Source: Escherichia coli (lineage in GTDB: Bacteria > Pseudomonadota > Gammaproteobacteria > Enterobacterales > Enterobacteriaceae). Taken from it: DNA of 64,000 nt. The stretch lies in NCBI RefSeq assembly GCF_030384885.1, contig NZ_CP128613.1, one strand, 5' to 3'. Every line of letters starts with the position of its first letter. Position 1 is the first letter of the stretch. The notes beneath the pieces are model-generated. The model had not been told where the DNA came from, did not search any database, and saw only the letters and a program-made list of their open reading frames with translations. Of the stretch, positions 34,961 to 39,539 are shown one piece after another. Both the position numbers and the translations under genes were made by a program.

Positions 34961-35073
34961 GAAACGGAGCGGCACCTCTTTTAACCCTTGAAGTCACTGC
35001 CCGTTTCGAGAGTTTCTCAACTCGAATAACTAAAGCCAACGTGAACTTTTGCGGATCTCCAGGATCCGCTTTT
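34961..35073 (+). ncRNA. oxyS: OxyS small regulatory RNA
   Basis: Reads GAAACGGAGCGGCACCTCTTTTAACCCTTGAAGTCACTGCCCGTTTCGAGAGTTTCTCAACTCG...GCGGATCTCCAGGATCCGCTTTTTTTT, matching OxyS including its terminal hairpin and U-run; divergent from oxyR. The 3' end is approximate. Confidence 0.88.
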
Positions 35074-35116
35074 TTTTATTCTACAGGCCCACAGCAAGAG
35101 AGCCTGATAGTAACAG

Positions 35117-36400
35117 TTACTCAATCCGATCTTTGACAATAAAGAAGTAACACAGCGCCCCGGTGAACGTCACACAGGCCGCGATAACCAGCGCCAGATT
35201 AAACGAGTGCGTGGTATCCACTACCCAACCGGTTACGATCGGAGCAAAGGAAGCAAAAACAAAACTGCCAAAGTTTTGAATCCCGGCGATGGAAGCCACT
35301 TTTGTTTCTGACACCATCACCTGCACCAGTCCCCATGCAGATGTTCCCGCGAAATGCACGCAGAACAGCGCCATTGAGATAAACGCTACAGCCTGGGCTG
35401 GCGAGGAGGATTGCACTACCAGCAACGTGCCTAATGCCGACATCATCAAACCGCAGACAATAGCCGTTTTACGCGTCTTCGCCAGGTCGTAGCCTTTTTT
35501 CGCCAGCCGATCGACAACAATACCGTTAACCCACATCCCGACCGCCGCCGCGAGGAAAGGAATCGCCGCCACCCAACCGGTTTTCGCCAGACTGAAGCCT
35601 TGCTCGGCTTGTAAATAACCGGGTAACCACGCGATGTAGAGCCAACCGGTATAATTGACGCCAGAGAAACCTAAAATCATCCCCCAGGTTGTCCGATGCT
35701 TAAACAGCGCCAGCCACTCGCTAAATTGTAATTGTGGACGCGGTTTAACCGGCGCGGAGAGATAGGTCCGTTCTTCGTCGGTCAGGACAAACTGCGCCCG
35801 GTTGCGATACCACGCGTACCAACAGATCCCAACCAGAATCCCCGCCACGCCGATGATGACGAACATTGCCCGCCAGCCCCATGCCAGCTGCATCAATACA
35901 AGAGCAGGAGGCGCAATAGCCTGACCGATAACGGTAGATGAGTTAAAAATCCCCAGCGCCGTGCCGCGTTCTTTTTGCGCATACCAGTCGGTGATCGACT
36001 TTACTCCCGCAGGCATAAATGGCGCTTCGCCAATACCCAGACCGATACGCATTAAAATAAAGTGGCTAAAAGAATTAACCATTCCTGTTAATGCCTGCAT
36101 TAATGACCAGAATATTAAGCCTGCGCCTAAAACTATTCGTGGGCCAAAGCGGTCTAGCAAAATACCGGAAGGGAGTTGTGAAAAACCATAAGACAGAGAA
36201 AATGCAGAAAGCAAAACGCCAAATTCTGTCGCCGATAATCCTAACTCGCCACGAATCGCTTCGCCTGCCACGCTCAATGACGAACGGTCGAGGAAATTAA
36301 CGATCCCCGCCATAAATAATAAAACCAGCGTTACTGTCTGAATACGACGAATCCGTTGCGGTTTATTACCCGCAACACTGGTTGACACATCAACGTCCAT
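35117..36400 (-). CDS. MFS transporter, anion:cation symporter (ACS) family, sugar-acid (hexuronate/aldonate) type
   Basis: 427-aa polytopic membrane protein with N-terminal ...LLFMAGIVNFLDRSSLSVAG... typical of DgoT/ExuT/GudP-like transporters; 66 nt downstream of the dehydratase gene on the same strand. Not present at this position in K-12 as I recall it. Confidence 0.8.
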   Translation of the reverse strand: MDVDVSTSVAGNKPQRIRRIQTVTLVLLFMAGIVNFLDRSSLSVAGEAIRGELGLSATEFGVLLSAFSLSYGFSQLPSGILLDRFGPRIVLGAGLIFWSLMQALTGMVNSFSHFILMRIGLGIGEAPFMPAGVKSITDWYAQKERGTALGIFNSSTVIGQAIAPPALVLMQLAWGWRAMFVIIGVAGILVGICWYAWYRNRAQFVLTDEERTYLSAPVKPRPQLQFSEWLALFKHRTTWGMILGFSGVNYTGWLYIAWLPGYLQAEQGFSLAKTGWVAAIPFLAAAVGMWVNGIVVDRLAKKGYDLAKTRKTAIVCGLMMSALGTLLVVQSSSPAQAVAFISMALFCVHFAGTSAWGLVQVMVSETKVASIAGIQNFGSFVFASFAPIVTGWVVDTTHSFNLALVIAACVTFTGALCYFFIVKDRIE

Positions 36401-36466
36401 TTTTAGCTCCTTGAGCGGAATTAATCGATTTGCTGACTATTCAGAAAATAATTAAGCGAACCGTTA

Positions 36467-37681
36467 TTACCAGTTCCACAATGTGCCATCTTCCAGTCGT
36501 GCGACGGGGAGATACGCCGGGTCATACGGATATTTCGCCGCCAGTTTCTCATCGAAAGAAATACCCAGCCCCGGTTCATCGCCTGGGTGCATATAACCTT
36601 CATCGAAGCGCCAGCTGTGCGGGAAGACTTCAAGCATTTGTTCGGAATAGCCCATGTACTCCTGAACACCAAAGTTTGGCACCCAGAGGTCAAAATGCAG
36701 CGCCGCCGCATGACAAACAGGCGATAAATCTGAAGGGCCATGCGAACCGGTACGTACCTGATAAAGCGATGCAAAATCGGCAATCCGTCGCATCCCGGTA
36801 ATGCCGCCTGCATGGGTAATCGTCGTGCGAATATAGTCAATCAGCTGCTCTTCGATTAACTGCTTGCAGTCCCAGATACTGTTAAACACTTCACCGACCG
36901 CAATCGGCGTCACAGTATGCTGGCGAATCAGACGAAAACATTCCTGGTTCTCGGCAGGCGTCGGATCTTCCATCCAGAACAGGCGGTAATCCTCTATGCT
37001 CTTCCCAAAGCGTGCCGCTTCGATAGGAGTCAGGCGATGGTGCATGTCATGCAACAGATGTTCGTTAAAACCGAACTTATTACGCACCGCTTCAAATAAC
37101 TTCGGTGTAAAATCGAGATACTTTTCTGAAGACCACAAATGCTCTTCCGGCCACAGGCCTTTGGTTGCCGGTTCATACGCCAGTCCTTTGCCCTTCGCCA
37201 GGCCATAAGTGGTTTGCATACCCGGTACACCGCACTGCACACGAATCGCCTTAAAGCCCATCTGCTGGTGCTTTGCATAGTCTTCAAGGACTTCATCAAT
37301 CGTGCGCCCGGTGGTGTGGCAATAAACCATCACGCCTTCACGAGAAGCCCCACCAAGCAGTTGATACAATGGCATATTTGCCGCTTTGGCTTTGATATCC
37401 CACAACGCCATATCAATGGCAGAAATGGCCGACATCGTGACGGGGCCACGTCGCCAGTAAGCACCTTTATAAAAGAATTGCCAGATATCTTCAATACGGC
37501 TGGCATCGCGGCCAATTAATTGTGGACAAAGATGATCTTTCAGATAAGAAGCGACCGACAATTCGCGACCATTTAATGTGGCATCTCCCAATCCACAAAG
37601 TCCGCTTGCAGTGGTTATTTTAAGCGTAACGAAATTACGTCCTGGGCAAGTAACAAAAACATCTGCAGCAATAATTTTCAT
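36467..37681 (-). CDS. Enolase-superfamily dehydratase, RspA / D-mannonate dehydratase (ManD)-like
   Basis: 404-aa product from [43 protein letters not shown]..., recognised as a close relative of starvation-sensing protein RspA; AGGAG Shine-Dalgarno 8 nt before the ATG at 37681. The ORF-track extension to 37741 is rejected. Confidence 0.82.
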
Positions 37682-38165
37682 TATTGCAATCTCCTGTGTT
37701 GTAAATAGACGCTTCAAACTTAATTTTACGCCTACTACCATACAAGAGAGAAAGAGCGATTATTCAACCGTGATCACATTAAAAATAAAAATTTCCGCCG
37801 AGGAGCCCCCCCCCCTCAAAAACCACCTGAATAATTAACCATCATCGTTAAAACAACACGTTAAATAATCACATAACAAACTCCATTAATCATTAAAAAT
37901 GAGCGCAGCAATAGAAATGAATTATATTCAATTAATTAAAATATGTATTGATTGATGTATTGAAAATATGATTTTCATGGGGAGAGTGAAGGTAAAGAAG
38001 ACGCAAGAATAAAAAGGAATATGACAAATAATAGTTCTGGTTGGGCGTTAAATTTAAGGTCACCAGAATGCTGACAAATTTCTGCCTGAGGCAGTCCGCC
38101 TACGTAGTGTCGCTACTTTATAGGCGTGGTAAGCTCCCCATTTTCAGGGGAGCAATATAAACCAA

Positions 38166-39539
38166 TTACCCCAACCGCGCCTGCGCAAAAGCAATCGCCT
38201 GCGCCACCTGCTGCGGTGAGACGCCGCCTTTTGCCGCACGCTTGTCGAGGCACGATTGCAGCGACAGAATCGGATAGACATCTTCGCCAATCACCTGACT
38301 GAATTTCTGCAACTCACTGAGCGGCAGTTCTTCCAGCGGTTTGCCCTGACGAATGGCTTCCACCACCGCTTCACCCACAATATGATGCGCCTCGCGGAAA
38401 GGTACGCCTTTCGCCACCAGGTAATCCGCCAGTTCAGTGGCGTTGGCGTAACCCTGCTGAGCCGCTTCCTGGCAACGCGGACGTTTCACCTGAATCCCGT
38501 CCAGCACCAGCGCCGCCATATGCAGGCAGTCCAGCCAGGTATCGAGCGCGTCGAACAGACCTTCTTTATCTTCCTGCATATCTTTGTTATAGGCCAGCGG
38601 CAGACCTTTCAGCGTCATCATCATGCCGGTCAACGCGCCCTGAACACGACCGCATTTACCCCGAATCAGCTCCAGCGCATCCGGGTTTTTCTTCTGCGGC
38701 ATTAATGATGAACCGGAAGTAACACGATCAGAAAGCTCCACAAAACCCGCTTCGCCGGTGTTAAAGAAAATCAGATCTTCGGCAAAACGCGACAAATGCA
38801 CCATACCGATAGCGGCGGCAGAAAGCAGTTCCAGCACGTGGTCGCGGTCAGAAACGCTGTCGAGACTGTTACGGGTCGCCGAGGCAAAGCCCAGCCAGCC
38901 TGCTAACTGTTCACGGTCGATTTCATAGGCCGTTCCCGCCAGTGCGCCACAGCCTAACGGGCTGACATCCAGACGCTTAAGCGCATCCTGCAAACGGCTT
39001 TCATCACGCGCCAGCATCTCAACATAGGCCAGGCACCAGTGCGCAAACGTCACCGGCTGGGCGCGTTGCAGGTGAGTGTAACCAGGCATTACCGCGTCCT
39101 GATTATTCTGCGCGGTCTCGACCAGAGCGGATTGTAACTGTCGGTTAGCCGTCAGCAACTCGCTAACGGTATCCTTGCACCACAGTTTCAGGTCAGTCGC
39201 TACCTGATCATTACGGCTACGCCCGGTATGCAATTTTTTGCCTAACTGGCCCACTTTGTCGATCAGTTTGCCTTCCACCCAGCTATGGATATCTTCGGCG
39301 TCGCTTTCAAGAATTTGTTGTGGCCTGGCGCGAACATCTTCCAGCAGCACATTGAGCGCCTCTTCCAGTTGCACCTGTTCTTCTGCGGTTAACACGCCTA
39401 CCGTTACCAGCGCTTTGGACCAGGCCACAGAGCCAACAATATCCTGCTCCGCCAGACGGTAATCAAAGCGCAGTGAGTCGTTGAATTGTTTAAACCGTTG
39501 ATCTGCTGCCTGGGTAAAACGCCCGCCCCAAAGTGCCAT
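38166..39539 (-). CDS. argH: Argininosuccinate lyase
   Basis: 457-aa product [42 protein letters not shown]... Confidence 0.96.

What the first reader, a model, noticed from the sequence alone, without database searches (positions are those of the whole stretch)
35078..38165. Accessory two-gene sugar-acid module (RspA/ManD-like dehydratase plus ACS-family MFS transporter) between oxyS and argH
In K-12 as I recall it, argH is followed almost directly by oxyS. Here about 3.1 kb separates them and carries a same-strand pair with a 66-nt spacer: an enolase-superfamily dehydratase closely resembling RspA / D-mannonate dehydratase (36467-37681) and an aldonate/hexuronate-type MFS transporter (35117-36400). 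The pair has no regulator, kinase or aldolase of its own, so the product (presumably a 2-keto-3-deoxy sugar acid) would have to enter core KdgK/Eda metabolism. Composition of the two genes looks host-like, so this may be an ancestral locus lost in K-12 rather than a recent import; no IS, integrase or flanking direct repeats are visible. Substrate and regulation are not evident from sequence.
Basis: partly seen in the sequence, partly recalled or inferred. Interest (0 to 1): 0.6.

Follow-up and report, generated by a model that had tools for sequence, protein, structure and literature searches.

The report
Strain-variable RspA-like sugar-acid gene pair
Between argH and oxyS this E. coli carries an intact two-gene operon, a sugar-acid importer plus a mannonate-type dehydratase, that about a third of E. 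coli strains have and K-12 lacks; it is an old offshoot of the known rsp sugar-acid locus rather than anything new in kind.

Summary
K-12 has 54 nt between the oxyS terminator and the argH stop. The window has 3,088 nt there (35078-38165), holding an intact MFS transporter (35117-36400, minus strand) and an intact ManD-subgroup dehydratase (36467-37681, minus strand), 66 nt apart.

The pair is present in 1,860 of 5,426 complete E. coli genomes, including CFT073, E2348/69 and IAI1. It is absent from K-12, a B-derived strain and O157:H7. RefSeq already names it manD plus "MFS transporter".

It is not a recent import:
- It occupies the same site in E. whittamii and two unnamed Escherichia species, with synonymous divergence matching the flanks. 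A decayed copy sits there in Citrobacter sp. R56.
- It has no IS, integrase or flanking repeats, and no plasmid copies.
- dN/dS is 0.01-0.06.

New here: the module derives from the enterobacterial rsp locus. ManD is a 91% identical, anciently diverged paralogue of RspA. Orthologues of the transporter sit beside rspA in ten other genera. The manD promoter is homologous to the rspA promoter but keeps only half of the RspR operator palindrome.

The likely function is hexonate uptake and dehydration to 2-keto-3-deoxygluconate. Substrate and regulation remain untested. Ordinary; low interest.

The parts
34961..35070 (+). oxyS sRNA gene; left boundary of the module, convergent with the MFS gene
   Evidence: Rfam RF00035, 139.5 bits, full length. 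Homology to K-12 ends at the terminator T-run at 35077.
35078..35116 (-). 39-nt gap between the MFS stop codon and the oxyS terminator; no intrinsic terminator on the minus strand
   Evidence: The terminator scan finds only the plus-strand oxyS terminator at 35051-35069. Sequence.
35117..36400 (-). MFS transporter, 427 aa, anion:cation-symporter (DgoT-like) type; predicted H+-coupled hexonate importer
   Evidence: ORF intact. Best NCBIfam match is TIGR00893 at 275 bits, below its cut-off of 395. E 4e-57 to E. coli DgoT 6E9N over residues 13-424, with the D-R pair and the GxxEAP glutamate conserved. Orthologues at 82-89% identity lie beside rspA in other genera. dN/dS 0.01-0.06.
36401..36466 (-). 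66-nt spacer with an AGGAG ribosome-binding site 9 nt before the MFS ATG; the two genes are presumably co-transcribed
   Evidence: Sequence (win_MFS upstream). Only a weak hairpin with a T-poor tail at 36476-36458.
36467..37681 (-). ManD-subgroup enolase-superfamily dehydratase, 404 aa; paralogue of RspA
   Evidence: NF043051 731 bits (cut-off 550), aligned 1-404. 896 bits to CFT073 RspA 4IL2; R147, Y159, D212, H214, E238 and E264 are all present. 91.3% amino-acid and 79.8% DNA identity to K-12 RspA. Forms its own clade. dN/dS 0.02-0.05.
37717..37749 (-). Inferred promoter homologous to the rspA promoter: half RspR box TCTCTTGTAT (37749-37740), -35 TTGTAT (37745-37740), 17-nt spacer, -10 TAAGTT (37722-37717)
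   Evidence: Alignment with the rspA promoters of K-12, Raoultella, Cedecea and Kluyvera. The exact 12-mer CTTGTATGGTAG occurs once in the window, at 37735-37746. The K-12 RspR box ATACnnGTAT, the footprint and the TSS 30 nt before the ATG are from PMC8249747. The consensus promoter scan did not flag this site.
37770..37778 (-). TGTGATCAC element, 23 nt upstream of the CTTGTAT motif; the TGTGA core and its spacing are conserved in rspA promoters. Possibly half of a CRP site (inference).
   Evidence: Alignment. Conserved in all Escherichia alleles.
37806..37815 (-). G10 homopolymer (C10 on the plus strand), specific to this lineage
   Evidence: G8 in the 99.94% identical strain 2013C-4282; GGGTGTTTTTTC in all other alleles.
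37779..38132 (-). AT-rich (about 36% GC) argH-manD intergenic region, conserved across Escherichia species, with a REP-like remnant near 38070-38130
   Evidence: Alignment of six alleles and species. No Rfam match. Composition.
38133..38153 (-). Hairpin GCTCCCC-N7-GGGGAGC just after the argH stop; the module-type argH terminator candidate, different from the K-12 argH terminator
   Evidence: Sequences. Conserved. K-12 sequence.
38166..39539 (-). argH; right boundary
   Evidence: ORF; RefSeq annotation of the identical locus.

Best explanation
This is a chromosomal, non-mobile two-gene operon (promoter, manD, MFS) that is an old detached copy of part of the enterobacterial rsp sugar-acid locus. 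It has been resident between argH and oxyS since before E. coli split from its sister Escherichia species, and it is now polymorphic in E. coli.

Proposed mechanism:
1. Inferred: the MFS protein, a DgoT-like proton-coupled organic-anion symporter, imports a six-carbon aldonic acid. D-mannonate is most likely. L-gulonate or D-gluconate are alternatives.
2. The catalytic apparatus is shown by sequence; the substrate is inferred. ManD carries the complete ManD-subgroup catalytic set (Arg147/Tyr159 base, His214 acid, Asp212/Glu238/Glu264 Mg2+ ligands) and dehydrates D-mannonate and/or D-gluconate to 2-keto-3-deoxy-D-gluconate.
3. Established pathway knowledge: the core enzymes KdgK and Eda convert that product to pyruvate and glyceraldehyde-3-phosphate.
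4. The homology is shown; the function is inferred. Transcription starts from a sigma-70 promoter homologous to the RspR-repressed rspA promoter. The -35 TTGTAT, the GGTAGTAG block and the upstream TGTGATCAC are kept. The left half of the RspR palindrome is changed (ATAC to TCTC). Control by the unlinked repressor RspR is therefore probably weakened or lost.
For: Family and integrity:
- NF043051 731 bits (cut-off 550).
- Full-length match to RspA 4IL2 at 896 bits with the catalytic residues conserved.
- DgoT homology, E 4e-57, with the D-R and E motifs conserved.
- Both ORFs are intact, with dN/dS 0.01-0.06 within E. coli and between Escherichia species.

Derivation from the rsp locus:
- The MFS orthologues (82-89% identity) sit next to rspA, within ynfA-rspA-rspB-ydfJ-ydfI-rspR, in Raoultella, Cedecea, Kluyvera, Enterobacter, Pluralibacter, Klebsiella, Atlantibacter, Lelliottia, Siccibacter and Citrobacter.
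- Lelliottia, Siccibacter and Kluyvera have the same rspA-then-MFS order as the window.
- The manD promoter aligns with rspA promoters.
- All 14 rspA promoters examined have ATACTTGTATGGTAG. The manD copies have TCTCTTGTATGGTAG.
- The 12-mer CTTGTATGGTAG is unique in the window.
- RspR box, footprint and TSS are from PMC8249747.

Age and non-mobility:
- Same site in E. whittamii, E. sp. E1V33 and E. sp. MOD1-EC7003.
- Module dS 0.26 against flank dS 0.30-0.33.
- Decayed copy at the same site in Citrobacter sp. R56.
- manD against rspA is saturated at synonymous sites (dS > 2) and forms a separate clade.
- No repeats or IS; 0 plasmid copies.
- Present in 1,860 of 5,426 genomes, spanning B1 (IAI1) and B2 (CFT073, E2348/69).
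Against: - No experiment bears on substrate, transport or regulation.
- From my own recollection of Wichelecki et al. 2014 (Biochemistry 53:2722 and 53:5692; texts not obtainable here): the nearest characterised enzyme, CFT073 RspA, is a low-efficiency D-mannonate/D-gluconate dehydratase with no demonstrated physiological role, and E. coli already has UxuA for D-mannonate.
- The NCBIfam 'ManD' model scores K-12 RspA higher (744 bits) than this protein (731 bits), so the RefSeq name carries no information on specificity.
- The transporter is below the TIGR00893 cut-off, and its orthologues sit in loci thought to handle L-gulonate. The imported compound may therefore not be the dehydratase's direct substrate.
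- The consensus promoter scan did not call the inferred promoter.
- Two thirds of E. coli do without the module. Individual genes have decayed in some lineages.
Confidence: 0.65

Rival explanations
1. The pair is an evolutionary relic. It is transcribed little or not at all, and the dehydratase is a low-efficiency enzyme made redundant by UxuA and RspA, so the module has no physiological role and is slowly being lost.
For: - Absent from about 66% of complete E. coli genomes.
- manD is reduced to stubs in Citrobacter sp. R56.
- An in-frame 276-nt deletion in the MFS gene occurs in strains 4973 and DSM 101139.
- Truncated copies are recorded in Shigella flexneri.
- The closest characterised relative was reported as low-efficiency, with 'cryptic' pathways (title cited; content from my own knowledge).
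Against: - dN/dS is 0.01-0.06 for both genes across E. coli alleles and across Escherichia species at dS about 0.26. That is as low as for argH (0.012-0.016).
- The 485-nt upstream region is conserved between species.
- Both ORFs are intact in the window and in every other E. coli allele inspected except one lineage.
Confidence: 0.2
2. The module handles a different acid sugar. The ManD paralogue has shifted specificity, for example to D-gluconate, L-idonate-derived or another aldonate, and the transporter imports that compound. The RefSeq name 'D-mannonate dehydratase' would then be wrong.
For: - The ManD clade sits on a long branch separate from all RspA orthologues.
- Ten positions have residue sets disjoint from RspA, including Q156 and L161 on either side of the catalytic Tyr159.
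- The HMM name does not discriminate within the subgroup.
- The ManD subgroup is known not to be isofunctional (own knowledge of Wichelecki 2014).
Against: - All catalytic and metal-binding residues are identical to RspA, with 91% overall identity.
- The clade-specific changes are conservative (K/E to Q, M to L).
Confidence: 0.25
3. The module is a recently acquired genomic islet, imported by horizontal transfer into some E. coli lineages.
For: - Patchy distribution in E. coli.
- The site is a hot spot: 147 genomes carry a further nine-gene cluster there, which did arrive with a foreign oxyS fragment.
- The closest transporter relatives outside Escherichia are in other genera.
Against: - Host-like GC.
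- No IS, integrase or repeats and no plasmid copies.
- Same junctions in B1 and B2 strains and in three other Escherichia species.
- Module dS tracks flank dS.
- No sampled genus has a protein closer than 92% (MFS) or 94% (ManD).
Confidence: 0.05
4. Like the original proposal for RspA, the dehydratase degrades a starvation or quorum signal (homoserine lactone) rather than a sugar acid.
For: 91% identity to RspA, named 'starvation-sensing protein' after Huisman and Kolter 1994 (cited in PMC8249747).
Against: - RspA-family enzymes crystallise and assay as acid-sugar dehydratases (PDB names).
- The partner gene is an organic-anion transporter of the sugar-acid type.
- The rsp loci contain sugar-acid oxidoreductases.
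Confidence: 0.03

Closest known systems
RspA (E. coli K-12 b1581; CFT073 RspA, PDB 4IL2) of the RspR-repressed rspAB operon
   Same: - Same length (404 aa).
- 91.3% amino-acid identity, with identical catalytic residues.
- Homologous promoter with the same -35, the same GGTAGTAG block and the same upstream TGTGA element.
   Different: - Different locus: argH-oxyS instead of ynfA-rspA-rspB.
- The downstream partner is an MFS transporter instead of the dehydrogenase RspB.
- The left half of the RspR palindrome is lost.
- Separate clade with saturated synonymous divergence.
- Present in only about 34% of E. coli.
rsp-locus MFS transporter of Raoultella, Kluyvera, Cedecea, Lelliottia, Siccibacter, Enterobacter, Klebsiella and others (uncharacterised)
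   Same: - Orthologous: 82-89% identity, same 427-aa length.
- Adjacent to an RspA-type dehydratase.
- Preceded by the CTTGTATGGTAG motif when it has its own promoter.
   Different: In those genera it is embedded with rspB, ydfJ, ydfI and the regulator rspR. In Escherichia it has left that locus together with a dehydratase copy.
DgoT-DgoD of the E. coli dgo (D-galactonate) operon
   Same: Same logic: an anion:cation-symporter MFS plus an enolase-superfamily aldonate dehydratase producing a 2-keto-3-deoxy acid. DgoT is the closest solved relative of the transporter. The galactonate dehydratase model matches at 249 bits.
   Different: By established knowledge, the dgo operon also encodes its regulator, kinase and aldolase. 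Both matches are distant and below family cut-offs.
High-efficiency ManD (Novosphingobium aromaticivorans 2QJJ, Caulobacter)
   Same: Same ManD subgroup; full-length match, E 3e-182; passes the NF043051 equivalog cut-off.
   Different: By my own knowledge of Wichelecki 2014, those enzymes replace UxuA in glucuronate catabolism in organisms that lack it. E. coli has UxuA, and its RspA-type enzymes were reported to be low-efficiency.

Membership tests
Enolase superfamily, D-mannonate dehydratase (ManD) subgroup | Full-length match to the subgroup profile above its curated cut-off | tested here: met
   NF043051 731 bits against a cut-off of 550, aligned 1-404/403. NF011654 805 bits against 430.
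Enolase superfamily, D-mannonate dehydratase (ManD) subgroup | Catalytic set: Arg147/Tyr159 base dyad, His acid two residues after the first Mg ligand, and three carboxylate Mg2+ ligands (D, E, E) | tested here: met
   R147, Y159, D212, H214, E238 and E264 were read from the residue-by-residue alignment to RspA 4IL2, and all are identical. The roles of these residues are from my own knowledge of Rakus et al. 2007. No direct alignment to 2QJJ was printed.
Enolase superfamily, D-mannonate dehydratase (ManD) subgroup | Measured dehydration of D-mannonate (kinetic class: high or low efficiency) | not testable with these tools
   Needs an enzyme assay. The HMM score does not separate RspA (744 bits) from this protein (731 bits).
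RspA orthologues (rspAB operon, RspR regulon) | Position in the ynfA-rspA-rspB locus | tested here: not met
   The gene lies between argH and oxyS. The same genome has a separate rspA (second place in the record).
RspA orthologues (rspAB operon, RspR regulon) | Groups with RspA orthologues in a tree | tested here: not met
   The argH-site copies form their own long branch outside 14 RspA orthologues. dS to E. coli rspA is above 2.
RspA orthologues (rspAB operon, RspR regulon) | Complete RspR box ATACnnGTAT over the -35 | tested here: not met
   The box reads TCTCTTGTAT in all Escherichia alleles and AATCTTGTAT in Citrobacter R56, against ATACTTGTAT in 14 of 14 rspA promoters. Whether RspR still binds was not tested.
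Anion:cation symporter (ACS) family of MFS transporters, DgoT-like | Full-length MFS homology, with DgoT as the closest solved relative and the conserved D-R (TM1) and E (TM4) proton/carboxylate-coupling residues | tested here: met
   E 4e-57 to 6E9N over residues 13-424. The LDR and GEAP motifs align with DgoT VDR and FEAP. Pfam PF07690.
Anion:cation symporter (ACS) family of MFS transporters, DgoT-like | Score above the TIGR00893 (D-galactonate transporter subfamily) cut-off | tested here: not met
   275 bits against a cut-off of 395. It is a relative, not a member, of that curated subfamily, so the substrate cannot be transferred from it.
Mobile genomic island | Integrase or transposase, flanking direct repeats, tRNA or att site, atypical composition | tested here: not met
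   No such ORFs. Only short chance repeats. Gene GC is about 0.50. No plasmid copies.

The most novel reading that the evidence does not exclude
The ManD paralogue and its transporter may have acquired a substrate of their own. That would give the roughly one third of E. coli that carry them a growth substrate K-12 cannot use, and would supply a physiological role for a 'low-efficiency' ManD-subgroup enzyme.

In addition, no terminator separates the MFS stop codon from the convergent oxyS gene 46 nt away. Induced transcription of the operon could therefore run antisense through oxyS and couple sugar-acid availability to the OxyS/OxyR peroxide response in carrier strains only.
Probability: 0.08. 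Interest if true: 0.55.

Novelty: new member of a known kind. Interest (0 to 1): 0.22.

Why it matters
The importance is modest.

1. This is a clean example of strain-variable sugar-acid catabolism in E. coli. It is present in the B1 and B2 reference strains checked and absent from K-12, a B-derived strain and O157:H7, so it may bear on niche differences in the gut.

2. It shows that the RefSeq name 'D-mannonate dehydratase ManD' is a profile label that does not distinguish this protein from RspA, so it should not be read as a substrate assignment.

3. CFT073, the strain I recall being used to probe the physiological role of RspA, carries this second RspA-like enzyme. Any rspA knockout phenotype there could be masked by it as well as by UxuA.

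4. The locus documents how a piece of a regulon (promoter, enzyme, transporter) can detach from its regulator and persist for a long time. It also shows that the oxyS-argH interval is a recurrent landing site for sugar catabolic genes.

Tried and rejected
- The two Wichelecki 2014 papers on ManD-subgroup function could not be obtained. What I say about 'low-efficiency' RspA rests on memory and on the title quoted.
- Literature searches for this specific locus or its protein accessions found nothing. The only relevant context paper notes that the oxyR-argH interval varies between families.
- A search for the published RspR box ATACnnGTAT (up to 1 mismatch) found no site upstream of manD. Only alignment of promoters revealed the half box.
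- The consensus promoter scan found nothing upstream of manD, and the terminator scan found no minus-strand terminator after the MFS gene.
- A permissive Rfam search of the whole module found only OxyS.
- A search for remnants of the K-12 54-nt spacer in carrier loci found only chance matches. I therefore could not decide whether the empty allele is a deletion derivative or an equally old alternative haplotype.
- Flanking repeats or IS as signs of insertion: none.
- A recent intra-E. coli duplication of rspA is rejected: 79.8% DNA identity and dS above 2.
- Two look-ups in strain IAI39 missed the locus because of a rearrangement. Phylogroup mapping therefore rests on a few reference strains whose phylogroups I know from the literature.
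Full report
**Observation.**
The window holds sthA (+), oxyR (-), oxyS (+, 34961-35070; Rfam 139.5 bits), then two intact minus-strand ORFs and argH (-, 38166-39539). The ORFs are a 427-aa MFS protein (35117-36400) and a 404-aa enolase-superfamily dehydratase (36467-37681), separated by 66 nt. In K-12 MG1655 the oxyS terminator T-run is followed by 54 nt and then the argH stop codon. Homology between K-12 and the window stops at 35077 and resumes at 38166. The K-12 54-mer has no counterpart in the window or in any other carrier locus I examined.

**What the two proteins are.**
- The dehydratase matches the NCBIfam ManD equivalog end to end (731 bits, cut-off 550).
- It matches the solved structure of E. 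coli CFT073 RspA (4IL2) at 896 bits. Arg147, Tyr159, Asp212, His214, Glu238 and Glu264 are all conserved. These are the base dyad, the acid and the three Mg2+ ligands of the ManD subgroup; the roles are from my knowledge of Rakus et al. 2007.
- K-12 RspA itself scores 744 bits on the same 'ManD' model. The RefSeq name manD is therefore a subgroup label, not a substrate assignment.
- The transporter's best curated family is the D-galactonate-transporter subfamily TIGR00893, but below its cut-off (275 against 395 bits).
- Its closest solved relative is E. coli DgoT (E 4e-57, residues 13-424). The Asp-Arg pair and the GxxEAP glutamate that mark proton-coupled organic-anion symporters of this family are conserved.

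**Distribution in E. coli.**
- Of 5,426 complete genomes, 1,860 carry at least 80% of the module. About eight more carry part of it. None of the copies is on a plasmid.
- Carriers include IAI1, CFT073, E2348/69 and an APEC O1:K1:H7 strain.
- K-12, a B-derived strain and O157:H7 have the empty site.
- The sampled empty sites all span 362-383 nt across the flanks, which corresponds to a spacer of 49-70 nt. This suggests one or few origins of the empty allele.
- RefSeq annotates the pair as 'manD: D-mannonate dehydratase ManD' and 'MFS transporter'.
- The window's own allele is matched at 99% identity or more in 155 genomes. The remaining carriers are 96.3-96.9% identical.

**Age of the module.**
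- A scan of one genome per bacterial species found the transporter at the same oxyR-oxyS / argH site in E. whittamii and Escherichia sp. E1V33. It lies beside oxyS and oxyR on a short contig of Escherichia sp. MOD1-EC7003. Protein identity is 99% in all three.
- Synonymous divergence between the window and these species is 0.26 for the MFS gene and 0.30-0.33 for the flanking oxyR and argH. The module has therefore co-diverged with its flanks.
- Within E. coli, module dS (0.07-0.12) is no greater than that of argH (0.12-0.21).
- dN/dS is 0.01-0.06 for both genes throughout.
- Citrobacter sp. R56 has a homologous promoter at the same site, a manD reduced to its first about 32 and last about 33 codons, and an intact MFS gene (92% protein identity).
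- No IS, integrase or flanking direct repeats are present, and gene GC is host-like.

A recent import is therefore excluded. Whether the K-12 state is a loss or an equally old alternative allele is not settled, because the two haplotypes share no spacer sequence.

**Origin from the rsp locus.**
- Outside Escherichia, the transporter's orthologues (82-89% identity) lie inside the rsp locus. They sit next to rspA, within ynfA-rspA-rspB-ydfJ-ydfI-rspR-ydfG-dcp, in Raoultella, Cedecea, Kluyvera, Enterobacter, Pluralibacter, Klebsiella, Atlantibacter, Lelliottia, Siccibacter and a Citrobacter.
- In Lelliottia, Siccibacter and Kluyvera the order is rspA then MFS, as in the window.
- E. coli's own rsp locus lacks this transporter.
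- The window ManD is 91.3% identical in protein and 79.8% in DNA to K-12 RspA, and 90.8-93.8% identical to RspA of other genera. RspA orthologues are 93-95% identical to one another.
- In a neighbour-joining tree, the argH-site copies form their own long branch outside all RspA orthologues. dS against E. coli rspA is saturated.
- Ten positions carry residues never seen in RspA, including Gln156 and Leu161 on either side of the catalytic Tyr159.

**Promoter.**
- The 100 nt before the manD ATG align with rspA promoters of four genera.
- In K-12, RspR (YdfH) protects 31 bp centred on ATACnnGTAT, the transcript starts 30 nt before the ATG, and RspR represses it (PMC8249747). This places the box over a -35 TTGTAT, with TAGATT as the -10.
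- All 14 rspA promoters examined read ATACTTGTATGGTAG, 66-81 nt before the ATG.
- Every Escherichia manD copy reads TCTCTTGTATGGTAG at the same distance, and Citrobacter R56 reads AATCTTGTATGGTAG. The -35, the right half-site, the GGTAGTAG block, the spacing and an upstream TGTGATCAC are kept. The left half-site is not.
- The promoters of the MFS gene and of ydfI in other genera carry similar one-sided variants, (A/C/G)TTCTTGTATGGTAG.
- The exact 12-mer CTTGTATGGTAG occurs once in the 64-kb window, at 37735-37746. In the K-12 loci fetched it occurs only at rspA.
- I infer a promoter with -35 at 37745-37740, -10 TAAGTT at 37722-37717 and a start near 37710. RspR control is probably weakened. 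None of this was tested, and the generic promoter scan did not flag the site.
- The rest of the 484-nt, 36% GC intergenic region is well conserved between Escherichia species and matches no Rfam family.

**How it most likely works.**
1. A hexonate is imported by the proton symporter.
2. ManD dehydrates D-mannonate (or D-gluconate) to 2-keto-3-deoxy-D-gluconate.
3. The core enzymes KdgK and Eda finish the pathway.

The self-contained transporter-plus-dehydratase design favours D-mannonate as the imported compound. The orthologues' association with RspB and YdfI leaves L-gulonate open, since these enzymes are, from my recollection of Wichelecki et al. 2014, an L-gulonate to fructuronate to mannonate route. 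The same papers, as I recall them, found RspA-type enzymes to be low-efficiency with no demonstrable role. The relic hypothesis therefore deserves weight, but strong purifying selection argues against it.

**Variants and side observations.**
- 147 genomes carry nine additional genes between manD and argH: an araD-like epimerase, a DeoR regulator, a four-gene ABC transporter, an L-ribulose-5-P 3-epimerase and an FGGY kinase. This cluster is bounded on the manD side by a degenerate second oxyS copy (81.6% identity; 35.5 bits). This shows the cluster came from a donor in which it also lay next to oxyS.
- Strains 4973 and DSM 101139 have an in-frame 276-nt deletion in the MFS gene.
- The window has a G10 tract 124-133 nt before the manD ATG. 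It is G8 in the otherwise 99.94% identical strain 2013C-4282 and absent from all other alleles.
- No minus-strand terminator separates the MFS stop from oxyS, so read-through antisense to oxyS is conceivable.

**Verdict.**
The module is an uncharacterised but already annotated member of well-known families. The added value here is its derivation from the rsp regulon, its age at this site and its half-lost operator. Interest is low.

Noticed in passing
window 37806-37815: A G10 homopolymer (C10 on the plus strand) lies 124-133 nt upstream of the manD ATG. It is G8 in the 99.94% identical strain 2013C-4282 and is replaced by GGGTGTTTTTTC in every other allele and species. It could be a slippage-prone tract or a sequencing artefact.
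   Followed up: partly
L006 5414-16012 (E. coli ECSC054): 147 of 5,426 E. coli genomes carry a further nine-gene sugar cluster between manD and argH: an araD-like epimerase, a DeoR regulator, a four-gene ABC transporter (IS5-disrupted in this strain), an L-ribulose-5-P 3-epimerase and an FGGY kinase. It looks like an L-xylulose or pentitol-type pathway.
   Followed up: partly
L006 5565-5687: A degenerate second copy of oxyS (81.6% identity over 97 nt; Rfam 35.5 bits, below gathering) sits between the manD upstream region and the FGGY kinase gene. It is a scar showing that the nine-gene cluster came from a donor where it also abutted oxyS.
   Followed up: partly
L004 2981-2993 and L036 (strains 4973, DSM 101139); corresponds to window ~35573-35848: An in-frame 276-nt deletion in the MFS gene, between 13-nt direct repeats, leaves a 335-aa product while manD stays intact.
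   Followed up: partly
L029 5160-6000 (Citrobacter sp. R56): At the same argH/oxyS site there is a homologous promoter, a manD reduced to N-terminal and C-terminal stubs, and an intact transporter (92% identity). The transporter therefore seems to be retained without its dehydratase.
   Followed up: yes
L037 25897-28422 (CFT073): CFT073 has two extra genes (an M20 aminoacylase and a citrate-proton symporter) between sthA and fabR. They are absent from the window's lineage, IAI1 and K-12. This is a second polymorphic site 2 kb from the module.
   Followed up: no
L008, L017-L024, L030, L031 (rsp loci of other genera): The motif CTTGTATGGTAG recurs before rspA (with a perfect ATAC left half) and before the MFS and ydfI genes (with the left half as NTTC). 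This suggests two or three RspR-type operators per rsp locus outside E. coli.
   Followed up: partly
L007 11846-13126 (Raoultella) versus L011/L012 (K-12): A phage integrase lies directly after rspB in one Raoultella genome, where a sister genome has ydfJ. This is the same position at which the Qin prophage interrupts the K-12 rsp locus, so it may be a shared prophage integration spot.
   Followed up: no
window 38166-39539 (argH): argH is unusually divergent among E. coli strains (95.5-97.2% DNA identity; dS 0.12-0.21). That is more than the adjacent module or oxyR.
   Followed up: no
L019 (record titled Chryseobacterium sp. 18061): This record carries a typical enterobacterial MFS-rspA-rspB-ydfJ locus, nearly identical to that of Citrobacter sp. 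18056. The assembly is probably mislabelled or contaminated.
   Followed up: no
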